DNA from: a virus
Taxonomy: Duplodnaviria; Caudoviricetes
IMG/VR virus record: IMGVR_UViG_3300025708_000007
Location: 26,968 to 90,967 of that record
Strand: one strand, 5' to 3'
DNA length: 64,000 nt
Each line of letters starts with the position of its first letter. Positions within the stretch are counted from its first letter, which is position 1. Of the stretch, positions 6,676 to 33,879 are shown in pieces. Position numbers and translations under genes: made by a program. The notes beneath the pieces are model-generated. The model saw nothing but the letters and a program-made list of their open reading frames with translations, made no database searches and was not told where the DNA came from.

Positions 6676-6750
6676 ATGGAGAATTTTGTACATATTCAAC
6701 CCCAGCCACAACAGCATCCACAAGATGGTGAATGGGGAACATGTGCTTAA
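6676..6750 (+). CDS. Leader peptide A, MENFVHIQPQPQQHPQDGEWGTCA (putative attenuator)
   Basis: 10 of 11 consecutive codons are His/Gln/Pro; precedes the Pro/His/Gln tRNA cluster. Confidence 0.8.
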   Translation: MENFVHIQPQPQQHPQDGEWGTCA

Positions 6751-12233: not shown

Positions 12234-12329
12234 ATGAAAAGAATGCTCGACATATCAGTAATGGCAGTAGCCTTGAACGCAGTCCTATTATGGGATGCAG
12301 TAGAGGATGCGCTATGCAAAGTCGGGTAA
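12234..12329 (+). CDS. Leader peptide B, MKRMLDISVMAVALNAVLLWDAVEDALCKVG (putative attenuator)
   Basis: 20 of 31 residues are L/V/A/D/E/W, matching the downstream tRNAs. Confidence 0.8.
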   Translation: MKRMLDISVMAVALNAVLLWDAVEDALCKVG

Positions 12330-12857: not shown

Positions 12858-12931
12858 GCTGCGTTCGGCAAGATGGTTAAGCCGTAAGACCTTCAATCTT
12901 ACATGCATGGGTTCGAGTCCCATACGCAGTA
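12858..12931 (+). tRNA. tRNA-Glu(TTC) with non-canonical C33
   Basis: TAAGA CC TTC AA TCTTA. Confidence 0.7.
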
Positions 12932-13046
12932 CAAGTGAAATCGAAATGTCGTAAGATAGTAGTAGTTAAGTCTACCGATTTTTGTGGTTTTGAGCACGAG
13001 ACGCTCATGTAATAGGGCATACACTCCCTTTCCACCACTTACTTAT

Positions 13047-25328: not shown

Positions 25329-26423
25329 ATGAAGTTAAATTACAAAATATTAGAAAAGGTCGATTGGAAAGTCTTGCAGACTTACATTGATAACAGTCTT
25401 ATTGTCGCAAATAAGCATCCAGAATATGACATTTGGATATTGAACTATTCACCAAAAGTTCAATCTAAGAAATTCTGGGATGAATATACTTTATCTGCAC
25501 GTGGACTCGTTATTGATGCAGAGGGTAATATTGTTGCACGTCCATATCAGAAGTTCATGAACCTTGAAGAACATGACCCAGCAGACATTGATATGTCTCA
25601 GGAATATGAGGTTTTTGAAAAGGTAGATGGGTCATTAATCATCCTTTTCTATTACGAACCACGTATGCAATGGATTTTTGCTTCAAGAGGCTCATTCATT
25701 TCAGAACAGGCATTGGAAGCACAGAAAATGTTCAACCACACTGTTCAGGAAAAAATGAGTTCAAAATATACTTATTTGTTTGAAGTCTTATATCCAGAAA
25801 ACCGTATTGTGGTTGATTATGGTAGCAGAAGGGAACTTGTGTTACTTGGAAAAATGAACACCACTACGGGTGAAGAATGCCCATACGAATATCTTGTTGA
25901 CAAATATTCAAAGCATTTTACTGTCGTGAAAAGAATTGACGTAAGACTCGATAATTTATCCGAATTAAAAAGGCTTGAAGAAGACAACAAGGAAGGGTTC
26001 GTGGTGAGATTCAAGAACGGTTTCAGGGTTAAAGTCAAATTTAACGAATACGTTAGATTGCATGGTATTCTAACAAATGTTTCAAACATAACTGTTTGGG
26101 AACATTTGGTGAATAACTACAATTTTGACCAGTTACTTGACAGAGTGCCAGACGAATTTTATGGTTGGCTACAAAGAGTCGTAGCGTCATTGCAAGGAAA
26201 ATACGATGAAATTGAAAAAGAATCGTTGAAAGAATTCGTGAGAATTTACCACACCAATGGTATTATTGAACGTAAGGATTTTGCAATGGAAGCTTTGAAA
26301 TCGGACTACCGTTCGATTCTTTTCAAAATGTACGACAAAAAACCATATGAATCGATAATCTGGAATATGGTGCGTCCTGTATATAGTAAGCCATTCAAGG
26401 ATGGTTTCGAATATAGTATATAA
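25329..26423 (+). CDS. T4 Rnl1-type RNA ligase
   Basis: KVDGS motif I, EGFVV motif IV, RVKVK. Confidence 0.88.
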   Translation: MKLNYKILEKVDWKVLQTYIDNSLIVANKHPEYDIWILNYSPKVQSKKFWDEYTLSARGLVIDAEGNIVARPYQKFMNLEEHDPADIDMSQEYEVFEKVDGSLIILFYYEPRMQWIFASRGSFISEQALEAQKMFNHTVQEKMSSKYTYLFEVLYPENRIVVDYGSRRELVLLGKMNTTTGEECPYEYLVDKYSKHFTVVKRIDVRLDNLSELKRLEEDNKEGFVVRFKNGFRVKVKFNEYVRLHGILTNVSNITVWEHLVNNYNFDQLLDRVPDEFYGWLQRVVASLQGKYDEIEKESLKEFVRIYHTNGIIERKDFAMEALKSDYRSILFKMYDKKPYESIIWNMVRPVYSKPFKDGFEYSI

Positions 26424-27096: not shown

Positions 27097-27900
27097 ATGA
27101 AACTATTTAATTTTTTAAAAAGAAAAAACAAAATCGAACCACAGGTTAGTGGAAATAAATTAGGACTTGGTTGGAAACGTGATTTACCTGACCCAAGAGA
27201 CTTTAAATTTAAAGTAACTGCACCAATTCCATTACCAAGTTTGGTTGATTTAAGACCAAAATGCCCACCAATTTATAACCAATATGAACTTGGTTCATGT
27301 ACAGCAAATGCAATGGGTGCTGCATTTCAATTTGAACAAATGAAGCAGGGAAAGAAAAATTTCATGCCTTCAAGACTTTTTATTTATTATAATACCAGAG
27401 CAATTGAGGGTACAATTAATTCCGATGCAGGTGCAACCATGAGAAATACAATGAAAAGTTTGGTTGATAAAGGCACTTGCCCTGAAACAAAATGGGATTA
27501 TAATACCAGCAAATTTGCAGAAAAACCAAATTTCTGTTGCTATCAGATAGCAAAGGATAATCAAGTTCTTCAATATTTGAGAGTAACGCATGATTTAACA
27601 GAAATAAAACAATGCCTTGCTTTGGGATACACCGTTGCATTCGGTATGATACTATTTAATTCATTCATGTCAAACGATACTGCTGCAAACGGAAATGTAA
27701 TTATGCCATTGCCAAATGAATCATCAATTGGCGGTCATGCAGTACTTGCTGTTGGATATGATGAAGAGAAGAAAGTATTGATAATGAGGAATAGTTGGGG
27801 CGTAGAATGGGGTGATAAGGGTTATTTTTATCTACCATACGAATATATAACAACACCCAACTTAGCTGCTGACTTTTGGACAATTAGACTGGTTGAATAA
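27097..27900 (+). CDS. C1 (papain-like) cysteine peptidase
   Basis: QYELGSCTANA; GGHAV; RNSWG. Confidence 0.9.
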   Translation: MKLFNFLKRKNKIEPQVSGNKLGLGWKRDLPDPRDFKFKVTAPIPLPSLVDLRPKCPPIYNQYELGSCTANAMGAAFQFEQMKQGKKNFMPSRLFIYYNTRAIEGTINSDAGATMRNTMKSLVDKGTCPETKWDYNTSKFAEKPNFCCYQIAKDNQVLQYLRVTHDLTEIKQCLALGYTVAFGMILFNSFMSNDTAANGNVIMPLPNESSIGGHAVLAVGYDEEKKVLIMRNSWGVEWGDKGYFYLPYEYITTPNLAADFWTIRLVE

Positions 27901-27928
27901 AAAAATATTGAAAATTTTGTAACATTTA

Positions 27929-27959
27929 TTTGTTTTTATCGTATTTATCCTTACATTTG
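27929..27959 (+). promoter_or_regulatory. Bacteroidota-type promoter of tRNA operon C
   Basis: TTTG, 19 nt, TACATTTG. Confidence 0.8.
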
Positions 27960-27987
27960 TAACCTCAAACTTTGTAAAAACATTTTT

Positions 27988-28077
27988 ATGATGACTATTT
28001 TTGGAACATATTATTACGGTAAAAAATCTTATAAGAAACAACTTATAGGAATCGGGAATACTATGTCCAAAAATTAA
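27988..28077 (+). CDS. Leader peptide C, MMTIFGTYYYGKKSYKKQLIGIGNTMSKN (putative attenuator)
   Basis: YYYGKKSYKK run precedes a cluster containing only Tyr and Lys tRNAs. Confidence 0.82.
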   Translation: MMTIFGTYYYGKKSYKKQLIGIGNTMSKN

Positions 28078-28105
28078 ATGGTTTTGATTTTAATCTGACA
28101 TGAAC

Positions 28106-28134
28106 AACCCGATTCCGAAAGAGTCGGGTTTTTT
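28106..28134 (+). terminator. Attenuator terminator C
   Basis: AACCCGATTC / GAGTCGGGTT plus T run; CCCGATTCC also pairs perfectly with GGAATCGGG (28048-56). Confidence 0.85.
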
Positions 28135-28146
28135 ATTTTGTATATT

Positions 28147-28228
28147 CGGCAGAATGGTAAGTGGGTGAAATCACAGGTCTGTAAAACCTTCGCCATTGGC
28201 TATGGGGGTTCGAATCCCTCTCTGCCGA
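28147..28228 (+). tRNA. tRNA-Tyr(GTA) with apparent C1:G72
   Basis: AGGT CT GTA AA ACCT; long variable arm. Confidence 0.8.
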
Positions 28229-28277
28229 CTGAAAGAGTTTAGGCATTTTCTGTATCGCTGACTGAAATATCCAAATT

Positions 28278-28351
28278 GACTTCGTATCCGTAGTGGCTTT
28301 CGGACTTGACTCTTAATCAAGGATACGTGGGTTCGAATCCCACCGAGGTCA
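28278..28351 (+). tRNA. tRNA-Lys(CTT)
   Basis: CTTGA CT CTT AA TCAAG. Confidence 0.88.
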
Positions 28352-28356
28352 CAAAT

Positions 28357-28439
28357 GGGAGTGCGCTATCGTTGGAGAGATAGGCTTGTCTGTAAAACAA
28401 GTGCCATTGGCTGAGTTGGTTCGAATCCTATCGCTCCCA
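28357..28439 (+). tRNA. tRNA-Tyr(GTA)
   Basis: CTTGT CT GTA AA ACAAG. Confidence 0.85.
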
Positions 28440-28446
28440 CAAATTT

Positions 28447-28519
28447 GCGCTTGTAACTCAGTTGGTAGAGTAACGGACCTTTAATCCGTGAGTCGTGGGT
28501 TCGACCCCCACCGGGCGCA
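28447..28519 (+). tRNA. tRNA-Lys(TTT) with non-canonical C33
   Basis: ACGGA CC TTT AA TCCGT. Confidence 0.85.
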
Positions 28520-28526
28520 CAAATAT

Positions 28527-28600
28527 TCTCCTATAGCAAACAGGATGTATTGCCCCGCTCTTTTAAAGCGGTGGGTCTGGTTCGATTCCAGATAGGAGAA
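28527..28600 (+). tRNA. tRNA-Lys(TTT)
   Basis: CCGCT CT TTT AA AGCGG. Confidence 0.8.
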
Positions 28601-28688
28601 CAGACAAGCATTGTGTTCATACTAACATTTAATTAATGAATATAATGCTTTTTCGTTTTGCAATGTATTTATCATAAAAGTATTTTTT

Positions 28689-29333
28689 ATGTATCATTGC
28701 AATAAATGTGATAAAAACTTCGAAAATCGGTATTCTTATATAGCACATTGCCGAATTCATTCCAATTATGTAAGACCCAAAAATCCAAATTCAAGACGAA
28801 ATAAACCACCCAAAACAATATGTATATATTGTGGTAAAACTTTTCAGAATGGACGTAGTTTAGGTGGACACATGACCCATTGCGAATTAAATCCAAATCA
28901 TAATCTTATTTTACAAAACATGTCCAAAGCAAGTCCAAAACGAAAATGGTCAGAAGAAGATAAAAAGAAAATTAGTAGAAGAATGATTGAATTTTTAATG
29001 AAAAATCCAGACAAAGTACCATATAAATTAAATCATTCAAGTAAAATGAGTTATCCTGAAAGAGTATTTGAAAATGCATTAAAATCAGCAAATATTTCAG
29101 GTTGGACATACAATTACCAAAATGGAATTTATTCATATGACTTTGCGTTTCCAGTTTTGAAAATAGATGTGGAAATTGATGGAAATACACATATCCAAGA
29201 AAAGGTGAGAAATATTGATAAACGCAGGGATAAATTTAGTACCAATAATGGTTGGATTGTAATTCGTTTTACCGCAAATGAAATTAAAGAAGATGTTTTG
29301 AAATGTATAAATACATTAAAAACATTTCTTTAA
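28689..29333 (+). CDS. C2H2 zinc-finger plus DUF559/Vsr-like endonuclease
   Basis: CNKC..H...H; YDFAFPVLKIDVEIDGNTH; GWIVIRF. Confidence 0.8.
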   Translation: MYHCNKCDKNFENRYSYIAHCRIHSNYVRPKNPNSRRNKPPKTICIYCGKTFQNGRSLGGHMTHCELNPNHNLILQNMSKASPKRKWSEEDKKKISRRMIEFLMKNPDKVPYKLNHSSKMSYPERVFENALKSANISGWTYNYQNGIYSYDFAFPVLKIDVEIDGNTHIQEKVRNIDKRRDKFSTNNGWIVIRFTANEIKEDVLKCINTLKTFL

Positions 29334-29445: not shown

Positions 29446-30270
29446 ATGACTAAAAAGAAAAAAGTAACGACAACCGTTACGACTACCGTTACTGAAGAAA
29501 TAATTTCTTCGAACGAAAAAACTCAAATTATCTGTATTCTTGACCGTTCTGGCTCTATGTCAGAGAACGGTGTAATTTATGAAGCAATCAATGGCTTCAA
29601 CGAGTTCCTTAAAAAACAAAGGGAGCTAAAAGACAAAGCAACACTCACTGTTGCACTATTCGATGACCAATATCAGTTACTTTATGATGATGTTGACGTA
29701 AAAGATGTTCCAGACATCACATACGACACTTGGACACCAAGAGGGATGACAGCATTGCTTGATGCAATTGGTAAAACAATCAACGCTGTAAAGGCAAACC
29801 GTATTAAATTAGGCTCAGAAAAACCCGATAAAGTATTGGTTTGCATTGTTACTGACGGCAAAGAAAATGCAAGTCAGGAATATGTTGCAAGACAAGGCAA
29901 TAAAGGCGATGTGATAAAAAAACTTATTAAAGAATGTGAAAATGAAGGCTGGAATTTCATTTATCTTGCTGCAAATCAGGACGCATTTGATGTTGGCAGC
30001 ACATTTGGTGTAAGTTATGGAAATACCTACAATTTTGCTGCAACTGCTGCTGGCGCATCTGCAATGAGCATGACGTTAAATAACGCTACTGTATCATACA
30101 GAAGCATGAGCACACAAGACGCTGGCTATCAGAAAAAAGCAAAAAATCTTATTGCTGATTTAGGCGAACAGGATGAAAAAGATGACTCACAAGATAGTGA
30201 TAATAATACTGTAACTGGTACGGCTACAGGTAATGTTACTTTTGATGTAAATAATATGTCACACACATAA
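29446..30270 (+). CDS. von Willebrand factor A domain protein
   Basis: ILDRSGSM MIDAS; TALLDAIG; VTDGKENAS. Confidence 0.88.
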   Translation: MTKKKKVTTTVTTTVTEEIISSNEKTQIICILDRSGSMSENGVIYEAINGFNEFLKKQRELKDKATLTVALFDDQYQLLYDDVDVKDVPDITYDTWTPRGMTALLDAIGKTINAVKANRIKLGSEKPDKVLVCIVTDGKENASQEYVARQGNKGDVIKKLIKECENEGWNFIYLAANQDAFDVGSTFGVSYGNTYNFAATAAGASAMSMTLNNATVSYRSMSTQDAGYQKKAKNLIADLGEQDEKDDSQDSDNNTVTGTATGNVTFDVNNMSHT

Positions 30271-33524: not shown

Positions 33525-33579
33525 ATATTAACGAGTTAGATTTTTTCTGTAAAAAAAATGAAAAAAATATTGAAAATAA

Positions 33580-33610
33580 TTTGGTATTTATGAAACATTT
33601 TATACCTTTG
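33580..33610 (+). promoter_or_regulatory. Bacteroidota-type promoter of tRNA operon D
   Basis: TTTG, 19 nt, TACCTTTG. Confidence 0.8.
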
Positions 33611-33679
33611 CATCGTATTTAGGTAAAAATGAGTTTATGAAAAAACCTTTTTATTATTAAAAACAAAAAAAATAAAACA

Positions 33680-33814
33680 ATGAAACGAATAGCGTACATA
33701 TTAGTATCGAGTCTAACGACAACCAGTCGTATTGGAGAAGGTACATTTTGCTCAGATTTCGGCAGAAATAATATTGCGGATACGGGTTCAGGTTTTATTG
33801 ACTTAAAAAGATAA
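33680..33814 (+). CDS. Leader peptide D, MKRIAYILVSSLTTTSRIGEGTFCSDFGRNNIADTGSGFIDLKR (putative attenuator)
   Basis: 30 of 44 residues are S/T/G/I/R/F/N/C, matching the downstream tRNAs. Confidence 0.8.
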   Translation: MKRIAYILVSSLTTTSRIGEGTFCSDFGRNNIADTGSGFIDLKR

Positions 33815-33847
33815 GTAGGTAGTAAAATAAAACTGAAATAAAATCAG

Positions 33848-33879
33848 AACCCGGAATCCAAAAAAGTTCCGGGTTTTTT
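33848..33879 (+). terminator. Attenuator terminator D
   Basis: AACCCGGAAT / GTTCCGGGTT plus T run; alternative pairing with 33778-33799. Confidence 0.85.

What the first reader, a model, noticed from the sequence alone, without database searches (positions are those of the whole stretch)
27988..28147. Attenuator C: YYYGKKSYKK leader before a Tyr/Lys-only tRNA cluster
8 of 10 consecutive codons are Tyr or Lys (TAT, TAC, AAA, AAG), and the five downstream tRNAs are Tyr x2, Lys(CTT) and Lys(TTT) x2. GGAATCGGG (28048-56) pairs perfectly with CCCGATTCC (28108-16) of the terminator. Established: tRNA-Lys and tRNA-Tyr are frequent targets of anticodon nucleases (PrrC, PARIS AriB, colicin E5, retron-associated PtuAB). 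Inference: this leader could act as a sensor of such an attack.
Basis: partly seen in the sequence, partly recalled or inferred. Interest (0 to 1): 0.9.

Follow-up and report, generated by a model that had tools for sequence, protein, structure and literature searches.

The report
Tyr/Lys leader attenuator gating phage tRNAs
A huge uncultured sludge phage places a tiny Tyr/Lys-rich test gene and a switchable transcription stop in front of its Tyr and Lys tRNA genes, so it probably makes these tRNAs only when ribosomes read Tyr/Lys codons slowly, a control not described for tRNA genes.

Summary
The order is a Bacteroidota-type promoter (27929-27959), a 29-codon ORF (27988-28077) with 8 Tyr/Lys in 10 codons, an intrinsic terminator (28106-28130 plus T tract), then tRNA-Tyr 17 nt after the stem.

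The 9-mer at 28048-56 and its complement at 28108-16 each occur once in the 91-kb contig.

27 distinct relatives from huge phages (complete genomes 328-363 kb) keep these features:
- the open frame (26-31 codons);
- 6-8 Tyr/Lys per 10 codons;
- a leader hairpin with compensatory changes;
- the invariant antiterminator pairing and the terminator;
- downstream tRNAs that are Tyr or Lys in 77 of 79 cases.

Three relatives shift frame after the Tyr/Lys run. They keep the RNA and an open frame, so the peptide itself is not the product.

Best reading (0.72): a trp/his-style ribosome-mediated attenuator that feeds back on the tRNAs it senses. It is one of four such units in this window.

The anticodon-nuclease "attack sensor" idea is untested. 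A conserved Rnl1-type RNA ligase neighbour and recurrent C33 tRNA-Lys(UUU) variants are only circumstantial.

This scan has reported the same kind of attenuator on at least eight other phage genomes. I found no paper describing it.

The parts
27929..27959 (+). Promoter of Bacteroidota type (TTTG, 19 nt, TAnnTTTG) containing the clade-conserved CGTATTTAT element at 27940-27948. The predicted transcript start is near 27966.
   Evidence: Pattern search: 4 of the 5 + strand matches in the window lie just upstream of the four leader ORFs; 17 of 25 relatives keep the strict motif. Read from the listing, 22 of the 25 carry CGTATTTAT and 3 carry GGTATTTAT. The start site is inferred.
27988..28077 (+). 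Leader ORF of 29 codons with a TAA stop. It is the sensor that a ribosome reads.
   Evidence: An open frame of 26-31 codons is kept in 27 distinct relatives, including three with a 1-nt deletion that changes the C-terminal peptide.
28009..28038 (+). Regulatory run, codons 8-17, with 8 of 10 Tyr or Lys.
   Evidence: Relatives hold 6-8 Tyr/Lys per 10 codons (mean 7.6), although the positions shift.
27997..28074 (+). Leader hairpin, the anti-antiterminator. The 5' arm (27997-28035) carries the Tyr/Lys codons. The 3' arm (28042-28074) carries the antiterminator strand. The core helix pairs 28027-28035 with 28042-28050.
   Evidence: Folding gives -21.9 kcal/mol. On alignment A1, 88% of cells pair, 12 pairs have changes on both sides, and 0 of 500 shuffles do as well. 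Core pair 28035/28042 is G-C in 20, A-U in 6 and G-U in 1.
28048..28056 (+). Antiterminator 5' strand (region 2), lying inside codons 21-23 of the ORF.
   Evidence: It is a perfect 9-nt complement of 28108-28116 and is unique in the contig. The 8-bp core can pair in 27 of 27 relatives. RNAalifold recovers it as a consensus helix without being told.
28106..28130 (+). Intrinsic terminator hairpin (regions 3 and 4), followed by the T tract 28129-28139.
   Evidence: 10 pairs, 5 G-C; -13.7 kcal/mol. It is present in all 27 relatives.
28147..28601 (+). Controlled genes: tRNA-Tyr, tRNA-Lys(CTT), tRNA-Tyr, tRNA-Lys(TTT, C33 variant) and tRNA-Lys(TTT). The first tRNA starts 17 nt after the terminator stem, which leaves no room for a separate promoter.
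   Evidence: In relatives, 77 of 79 tRNAs within 1 kb downstream are Tyr or Lys.
25329..26423 (+). Context gene: Rnl1-type RNA ligase (T4 RNA ligase 1 family). It is not part of the attenuator.
   Evidence: Pfam PF09511, E = 1.4e-21. It lies upstream of the Tyr/Lys leader in 26 fetched loci at 51-72% identity, apart from near-identical copies of this phage.

Best explanation
This is a ribosome-mediated (leader-peptide) transcription attenuator that gates a phage tRNA-Tyr/tRNA-Lys operon.

**Proposed sequence of events**
1. Transcription starts at the promoter 27929-27959, and the 29-codon leader is translated while RNA polymerase moves on.
2. If charged Tyr and Lys tRNAs are plentiful, the ribosome runs through the Tyr/Lys run and covers region 2 (28048-28056). 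Region 3 then pairs with region 4, the terminator forms, and the transcript ends before tRNA-Tyr.
3. If no ribosome loads, the leader hairpin holds region 2 and the result is again termination.
4. If decoding of Tyr or Lys codons is slow, the ribosome stalls on codons 8-16. This melts the 5' arm of the leader hairpin but leaves region 2 free. Region 2 pairs with region 3, the terminator cannot form, and the five tRNA genes are transcribed.
5. The new tRNAs relieve the stall, so the unit is a negative-feedback supply controller. It is one of four in this window that together partition the amino acids.

**Shown here:** the anatomy, its conservation, compensatory changes in the leader hairpin, retention of Tyr/Lys content, and the association with Tyr/Lys tRNAs.

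**Inferred:** translation of the ORF, coupling to transcription, and the direction and size of the response.
For: **Anatomy.** The order is promoter, ORF, terminator, tRNA, with only 17 nt between the terminator stem and tRNA-Tyr.

**Alternative pairing.** The two complementary 9-mers are each unique in 91 kb. Duplex energy is -17.5 kcal/mol, against -13.7 for the terminator and -21.9 for the leader hairpin.

**Occlusion model.** With a 28-nt ribosome footprint, the minimum-energy fold of the full leader switches from terminator to antiterminator only when the A site is on codons 10-16. It switches back from codon 17, once region 2 is covered. When folding only up to region 3, the antiterminator forms unless the ribosome has passed the run.

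**Relatives.** 27 distinct relatives were found by protein synteny and by two different DNA patterns.
- All have an ORF of 26-31 codons with 6-8 Tyr/Lys per 10 codons.
- The last Tyr/Lys codon lies 8-14 nt before region 2, and the stop codon 12-28 nt after it.

**Structure statistics.** The leader hairpin plus terminator pair in 88% of cells, against 38-52% when partners are slid. 12 pairs show changes on both sides, and 0 of 500 shuffles reach this. A synonymous Lys AAG/AAA change goes with a Leu/Phe CTT/TTT change in the partner codon.

**Frame-shifted relatives.** L022, L024 and L033 carry a 1-nt deletion that changes the peptide after the run but keeps the RNA and an open frame.

**Downstream tRNAs.** 77 of 79 are Tyr or Lys, in varied order and copy number.

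**Internal replication.** Three sister units in the window each have their own antiterminator/terminator complement and a leader enriched in its own cluster's amino acids. Observed versus expected fractions are 0.43/0.09, 0.67/0.34 and 0.70/0.41, and 0.32/0.14 for this unit. Orthologues of the sister units occur in L022, L031 and L035, and the L022 and L035 leaders are followed by matching tRNA runs.

**Known families.** No Rfam family matches the leader.

**Activity.** RNA-library contigs from activated sludge cover the region; one spans 27112-28149. This is weak evidence only.
Against: - There is no experimental evidence, and contigs cannot show RNA ends.
- The antiterminator helix is invariant in the family, so it has no covariation of its own. 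Support for it comes from uniqueness and from the differently spelled sister units.
- The 7-bp core of the leader hairpin can coexist with the antiterminator. Exclusion therefore rests on the outer, weaker helices, which pair in 83% of cells.
- The full-length equilibrium model gave a clean switch for this unit only: sister unit A never left the terminator state, and B and D switched at places that do not track their cognate codons.
- Several relatives have well over 100 nt between the terminator and the first tRNA, for example L009, L013, L015, L026 and L031. A second promoter could lie there.
- The X17 RNA contig runs from the upstream peptidase gene through the promoter, leader and terminator. 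Read-through from upstream, or DNA in the library, is therefore possible.
- The host is unknown. Transcription-translation coupling in Bacteroidota is assumed, not shown.
- Extra tRNA would not help if the amino acid itself were limiting.
Confidence: 0.72

Rival explanations
1. This is an anticodon-nuclease attack sensor. The unit exists mainly to detect cleavage of host tRNA-Lys or tRNA-Tyr by a defence nuclease. It answers with a burst of phage tRNAs, some of them nuclease-resistant.
For: - Lys and Tyr tRNAs are documented targets of PrrC, AriB, colicin E5-type nucleases and PtuB (PMC12409363).
- An Rnl1-type RNA ligase sits upstream of the operon in 26 fetched loci. T4 RNA ligase 1 repairs PrrC-cut tRNA-Lys; this is my own knowledge, not checked here.
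- tRNA-Lys(UUU) 28447-28520 has C33, while 48 of 50 tRNAs in the window have U33.
- 15 of 35 Lys(UUU) genes in relatives have C33 on varied anticodon stems.
- Tyr and Lys share an operon of their own.
Against: - The same architecture gates all four arrays and covers most amino acids, so no special link to nuclease targets is needed.
- No T4-type 3'-phosphatase domain (PF08645) was found in this contig or in four complete relatives.
- Gene order is broadly conserved in this clade, so synteny alone says little.
- The host and its defence systems are unknown.
- The effect of C33 on any nuclease is untested.
Confidence: 0.15
2. This is a constitutive or leaky terminator plus a structured 5' leader that serves only transcript processing or stability. 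The small ORF is then a by-product of A/T-rich RNA structure and is not translated for regulation.
For: - Both arms of the leader hairpin lie in the ORF, so peptide conservation partly reflects RNA constraints.
- There is no direct evidence of translation.
- One RNA contig crosses the terminator.
Against: - RNA structure alone does not explain why four differently spelled leaders are each enriched in the amino acids of their own downstream tRNAs.
- It does not explain why Tyr/Lys content is kept when positions shift.
- It does not explain why the frame stays open in all 27 sequences, including the frame-shifted ones, in a genome of 33.5% G+C.
- It does not explain why the antiterminator strand always lies 8-14 nt beyond the last Tyr/Lys codon.
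Confidence: 0.08
3. The ORF is a small-protein gene with its own terminator. The peptide acts in trans, and the tRNAs are made by passive read-through or from another promoter.
For: The N-terminal half of the peptide is well conserved. Some relatives have over 100 nt between the terminator and the first tRNA.
Against: - Three relatives replace the C-terminal third by another frame while keeping the nucleotide sequence.
- In the window there are only 17 nt between the terminator stem and tRNA-Tyr.
- The peptide has no matching sequence in GenBank phages at DNA level.
- Its composition tracks the tRNAs downstream.
Confidence: 0.05

Closest known systems
Leader-peptide attenuators of amino-acid operons (trpL, hisL, pheL, leuL; multivalent thrL and the ilvGMEDA leader)
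   Same: - A short translated ORF with a run of regulatory codons.
- A leader hairpin, an antiterminator and an intrinsic terminator in mutually exclusive pairings.
- A ribosome position that decides the outcome.
- Two amino acids sensed by one leader, as in the multivalent thr and ilv leaders.

The family knowledge is my own; the anatomy was tested.
   Different: - The genes controlled are tRNA genes, not biosynthetic enzymes, so the sensed molecule and the product are the same kind of thing.
- It is carried by a phage.
- There is no sequence relation to any Rfam leader family.
- The stop codon lies 18 nt beyond region 2, rather than before it as in trpL.
The pheST attenuator with the pheM leader of E. 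coli
   Same: A gene of the translation apparatus is controlled by a leader rich in the cognate codon, so expression follows the charging of one tRNA species (my own knowledge).
   Different: There the product is the synthetase, which raises charging. Here the product is the tRNA itself. The host is a different lineage and there is no sequence similarity.
T-box riboswitches
   Same: Both give transcription attenuation that reads the state of a specific tRNA and controls genes serving that tRNA's amino acid.
   Different: A T-box binds uncharged tRNA directly through a specifier codon and the T-box motif, without a ribosome. No T-box match was found at E up to 10. The leader here is about 150 nt and contains an ORF.
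Phage tRNAs as counter-defence (T5 tRNA-Lys against PARIS AriB; T4 Rnl1 with Pnkp against PrrC)
   Same: The phage carries its own tRNA-Lys, including copies with an altered anticodon loop (C33), next to an Rnl1-family ligase (PMC12409363).
   Different: Those systems have no known demand-sensing control of tRNA transcription. Resistance of the C33 copy is untested, and no Pnkp-type phosphatase was found.

Membership tests
Ribosome-mediated leader-peptide transcription attenuators | A short ORF with a start codon lies between the promoter and the structural genes. | tested here: met
   The 29-codon ATG ORF is 27988-28077, 28 nt after the promoter motif. It is kept open in 27 relatives.
Ribosome-mediated leader-peptide transcription attenuators | Codons of the sensed amino acids are clustered. 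| tested here: met
   8 of 10 codons are Tyr or Lys. It is the only such ORF among 869 short ORFs. Relatives hold 6-8 of 10.
Ribosome-mediated leader-peptide transcription attenuators | An intrinsic terminator lies between the leader ORF and the controlled genes. | tested here: met
   The hairpin 28106-28130 plus T tract ends 17 nt before tRNA-Tyr. It is conserved in 27 of 27 relatives.
Ribosome-mediated leader-peptide transcription attenuators | An antiterminator pairing uses the terminator's 5' arm. | tested here: met
   28048-56 pairs with 28108-16 over 9 bp, and each 9-mer is unique in 91 kb. The 8-bp core can pair in 27 of 27 relatives, but it is invariant and so shows no covariation.
Ribosome-mediated leader-peptide transcription attenuators | An upstream hairpin overlaps the regulatory codons and sequesters the antiterminator strand. 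| tested here: met
   This is the leader hairpin 27997-28074, with 12 compensatory pairs and 0 of 500 shuffles as good. Caveat: its 7-bp core can coexist with the antiterminator.
Ribosome-mediated leader-peptide transcription attenuators | A ribosome stalled at the regulatory codons leaves the antiterminator strand free, while a ribosome further on covers it. | tested here: met
   The occlusion model shows this. The gap from the last Tyr/Lys codon to region 2 is 8-14 nt in all relatives. This is a model only.
Ribosome-mediated leader-peptide transcription attenuators | Read-through rises when the cognate charged tRNA is scarce. | not testable with these tools
   This needs reporter or 3'-end mapping experiments. 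RNA contigs cannot show transcript ends.
T-box riboswitch | Conserved T-box sequence and specifier-loop architecture (Rfam T-box model). | tested here: not met
   cmscan of 27900-28700 at E up to 10 found only tRNAs and chance matches.
Rfam amino-acid leader families (His, Trp, Thr, Leu and similar leaders) | A match to the family covariance model. | tested here: not met
   No leader family was reported at E up to 10.

The most novel reading that the evidence does not exclude
The Tyr/Lys unit is a phage counter-defence circuit. When a host anticodon nuclease depletes tRNA-Lys or tRNA-Tyr, ribosomes stall on the leader. The phage then switches on an operon that includes nuclease-resistant C33 tRNA-Lys copies, backed by the neighbouring Rnl1 ligase. 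More broadly, huge phages would run a set of codon-specific sensors that rebuild the cell's tRNA pool on demand.
Probability: 0.15. Interest if true: 0.92.

Novelty: new variant of a known kind. Interest (0 to 1): 0.8.

Why it matters
**New target for a known mechanism.** Leader-peptide attenuation is a textbook mechanism, but by my own knowledge only for amino-acid biosynthesis and a few synthetase genes. Here it appears to control tRNA genes, so the sensed quantity (decoding capacity for given codons) and the output (the tRNAs that read them) form a direct feedback loop.

**What it would show if confirmed**
- Huge phages do not simply add tRNAs to the cell. They meter them by demand.
- It would explain why tRNA arrays in these phages are sorted by amino acid.
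- It would provide natural, compact, codon-specific sensors of translation that could be reused as reporters of tRNA depletion, including depletion by tRNA-targeting defence systems.

**What makes it testable.** The Tyr/Lys family is a small, well-conserved unit of about 150 nt with 27 natural variants, including built-in compensatory and frame-shift variants.

Tried and rejected
- **Rfam.** A scan of 27900-28700 at E up to 10 found no known leader, T-box or riboswitch.
- **GenBank phages.** blastn of the leader against them gave no match.
- **Bacterial and archaeal genomes.** The scan found a single hit, a 362,763-base contig filed as a Candidatus Paceibacterota MAG. Its length equals that of the IMG/VR phage record behind L038, so it is probably that phage and gives no host clue.
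- **Covariation in the antiterminator.** None exists, because the helix is invariant. Invariance also held in hits found with a pattern that did not include it.
- **Full-length equilibrium occlusion model.** It gave a clean switch for this unit only. Sister unit A stayed in the terminator state throughout, and B and D switched at places unrelated to their cognate codons. I do not use it as support for them.
- **Metatranscriptome contigs.**
  - They cover the locus but cannot show RNA ends or strand.
  - The gaps in cover at 27468-28001 in three of the four runs prove nothing.
  - Two RNA contigs from different studies end at 33865/33866, inside the terminator of sister unit D. This is at most a weak hint.
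- **T4-type end-healing partner for the ligase.** The PF08645 phosphatase was absent from this contig and from four complete relatives. An AAA_33 kinase ORF exists at contig position 3900-4310 but was not examined.
- **Chance matches.** Three of the 32 hits to the peptide-based pattern (L045, L046, L048) are A/T-rich chance matches with neither terminator nor tRNAs, and were discarded.
- **Literature.** Seven searches found no paper linking leader peptides or attenuators to tRNA genes, arrays or phage tRNAs. Naville and Gautheret 2010 has no occurrence of 'tRNA gene', 'tRNA operon' or 'upstream of tRNA'.

Full report
**Setting.** The window is part of a 90,967-base IMG/VR virus record, estimated 28% complete and 33.5% G+C.
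- It carries 50 tRNA genes and a tmRNA, all on the + strand and sorted by amino acid.
- Its ribonucleotide reductase is closest to uncultured huge phages (62.8% identity to a 634,780-base record), and next to crAss-like phages of Bacteroides at about 40%.
- The DNA occurs in activated-sludge, wastewater and digester metagenomes from many studies.
- Four relatives that carry the same leader are complete genomes of 328-363 kb.

**Observation.**
- ORF 27988-28077 has 29 codons, and codons 8-17 read YYYGKKSYKK.
- The segment 28048-56 is the exact complement of 28108-16. Each 9-mer occurs once in the whole contig, and a complement that long arose in 7 of 20,000 shuffles.
- The terminator 28106-28130 has 10 pairs and a T tract.
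- tRNA-Tyr begins at 28147, followed by Lys(CTT), Tyr, Lys(TTT) and Lys(TTT). No other Tyr or Lys tRNA exists in the window.
- Among 869 short ORFs of the contig in six frames, this is the only one with 7 or more Tyr/Lys in ten codons.

**Anatomy beyond the finding.**
- A Bacteroidota-type promoter (TTTG, 19 nt, TAnnTTTG) lies at 27929-27959. Of the five + strand matches to that pattern in the window, four sit directly before the four leader ORFs.
- The leader ORF folds into a long imperfect hairpin (27997-28074, -21.9 kcal/mol). Its 5' arm holds the Tyr/Lys codons and its 3' arm holds the antiterminator strand.
- The unit therefore has the four classical segments: the regulatory codons in arm 1, region 2 at 28048-56, and regions 3 and 4 forming the terminator.

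**How it would work.** I modelled a ribosome as a 28-nt block.
- On the full leader transcript, the lowest-energy fold holds the terminator for every ribosome position except A-site codons 10-16. There the antiterminator replaces it. From codon 17 on, the ribosome covers region 2 and the terminator returns.
- Folding only what exists before region 4 is made gives the same boundary.
- The stop codon lies 18 nt beyond region 2, so an unhindered ribosome must pass over it.
- Without a ribosome, the full transcript folds into leader hairpin plus terminator.
- These are equilibrium models, not measurements.

**Relatives.** I found them through the neighbouring peptidase gene and through two DNA patterns, one of which did not include the antiterminator. 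This gave 27 distinct leader-terminator sequences.
- All keep an ORF of 26-31 codons with 6-8 Tyr/Lys per ten codons. The last Tyr/Lys codon lies 8-14 nt before region 2, and the stop 12-28 nt after it.
- Where residues change, Tyr/Lys content is kept by shifting positions.
- The leader hairpin and terminator pair in 88% of cells, against 38-52% for slid partners. 12 pairs have changes on both sides, and no shuffle does as well.
- The clearest case is a synonymous Lys AAG/AAA change that goes with a Leu/Phe change (CTT/TTT) in the partner codon. The pair is G-C in 20, A-U in 6 and G-U in 1.
- Three relatives (L022, L024, L033) lost one base just before region 2. Their peptide ends differently, yet the RNA and an open frame are kept. 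This points to selection on RNA structure and on translation as such, not on a peptide product.
- The antiterminator core can pair in all 27 but never varies. RNAalifold finds it unprompted.
- Downstream, 77 of 79 tRNAs are Tyr or Lys, in many orders and copy numbers.

**Replication inside the genome.**
- Three more units, at 6676-6750, 12234-12329 and 33680-33814, have the same layout. Each has its own antiterminator/terminator spelling and a leader enriched in the amino acids of its own tRNA block.
- Orthologues of two of them turned up in the fetched loci with different spellings again, and the L022 and L035 leaders are followed by matching tRNA runs.
- These sister units act as natural covariation for the pairing that is invariant within the Tyr/Lys family.

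**The nuclease idea.**
- Two things I noticed fit a tRNA-damage theme. An Rnl1-type RNA ligase lies 1.6 kb upstream, and this arrangement recurs in 26 loci. One tRNA-Lys(UUU) copy has C33 where 48 of 50 tRNAs in the window have U33. The same variant recurs in 15 of 35 Lys(UUU) genes of relatives, on diverse anticodon stems.
- Against a dedicated role: the same control covers most amino acids, no Pnkp-type phosphatase was found, and nothing about the host is known.
- I rate it a minority reading at 0.15. The attenuator would nevertheless respond to such an attack as to any other shortage.

**Expression.** Six metatranscriptome runs hold parts of the stretch. Contigs from four of them cover the locus, and one spans 27112-28149, ending 3 nt into tRNA-Tyr. 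Contigs cannot show RNA ends and may include DNA, so this shows at most that the phage was present in RNA libraries.

**Known or new.**
- No Rfam family matches, and there is no match in GenBank phages.
- Seven full-text searches found nothing that links leader peptides or attenuators to tRNA genes.
- This scan has already reported the same kind of unit on at least eight other phage genomes, and the whole four-unit system on this one. One of those reports was later re-rated at 93/100 for what was seen and 30/100 for the bold reading.
- I class it as a new variant of a known kind: the mechanism is classical, but the controlled genes and the closed feedback on the sensed tRNAs are not described.

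**Verdict.** Attenuator reading: 0.72. Attack-sensor reading: 0.15. Interest: 0.8.

Noticed in passing
window 28447-28520 and 12858-12932; relatives: tRNA-Lys(UUU) and tRNA-Glu(UUC) each have one copy with C33 instead of U33, beside a normal U33 copy. The other 48 tRNAs have U33. In relatives, 15 of 35 Lys(UUU), 2 of 12 Lys(CUU) and 2 of 30 Tyr genes have C33, on varied stems. This could be an anticodon-loop variant that escapes a nuclease.
   Followed up: partly
window 25329-26423: A T4 Rnl1-family RNA ligase (PF09511) lies upstream of the Tyr/Lys operon. The same ligase lies upstream of the Tyr/Lys leader in 26 fetched loci. No PF08645 phosphatase was found in this contig or in four complete relatives. 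An AAA_33 kinase ORF lies at contig position 3900-4310, outside the window.
   Followed up: partly
L009 8040-8210; also L013, L015, L021, L034, L038, L040, L042 just after the terminator: In some relatives, more than 100 nt separate the terminator from the first tRNA. This spacer begins with repeated GCATAAAAACG-like and TGAAAAACGTTTA-like motifs. These could be a protein-binding array or a second promoter.
   Followed up: no
window 28689-29333: A C2H2 zinc-finger plus DUF559 ORF (endonuclease-like) lies directly after the tRNA block. It is present in only 6 of the fetched loci, so it is probably a mobile insertion.
   Followed up: partly
L049 (JBAZIW010000001.1): A 362,763-base contig filed as a Candidatus Paceibacterota MAG carries the leader and has the same length as the IMG/VR phage record behind L038. 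It is probably a phage genome binned as a bacterium.
   Followed up: no
window 33560-33866: RNA-library contigs from two different studies (X15, X16) both end at 33865/33866, inside the terminator hairpin of sister attenuator D. A third (X17) runs through to 34005.
   Followed up: no
window 29446-30270: The vWA-domain gene after the tRNA block has the highest contig depth in all four RNA libraries (5-42, against about 2-9 nearby). It is syntenic in 27 loci.
   Followed up: no
L004 2810-2900: A tRNA-like sequence ending in a T-arm and acceptor-like motif lies between the terminator and the first called tRNA-Lys. ARAGORN did not call it.
   Followed up: no
window 27940-27948 and relatives: A near-invariant CGTATTTAT element lies between the two promoter hexamers in all relatives. 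It also occurs before other genes of the contig, for example near 28666. It may be a phage-specific promoter element.
   Followed up: partly
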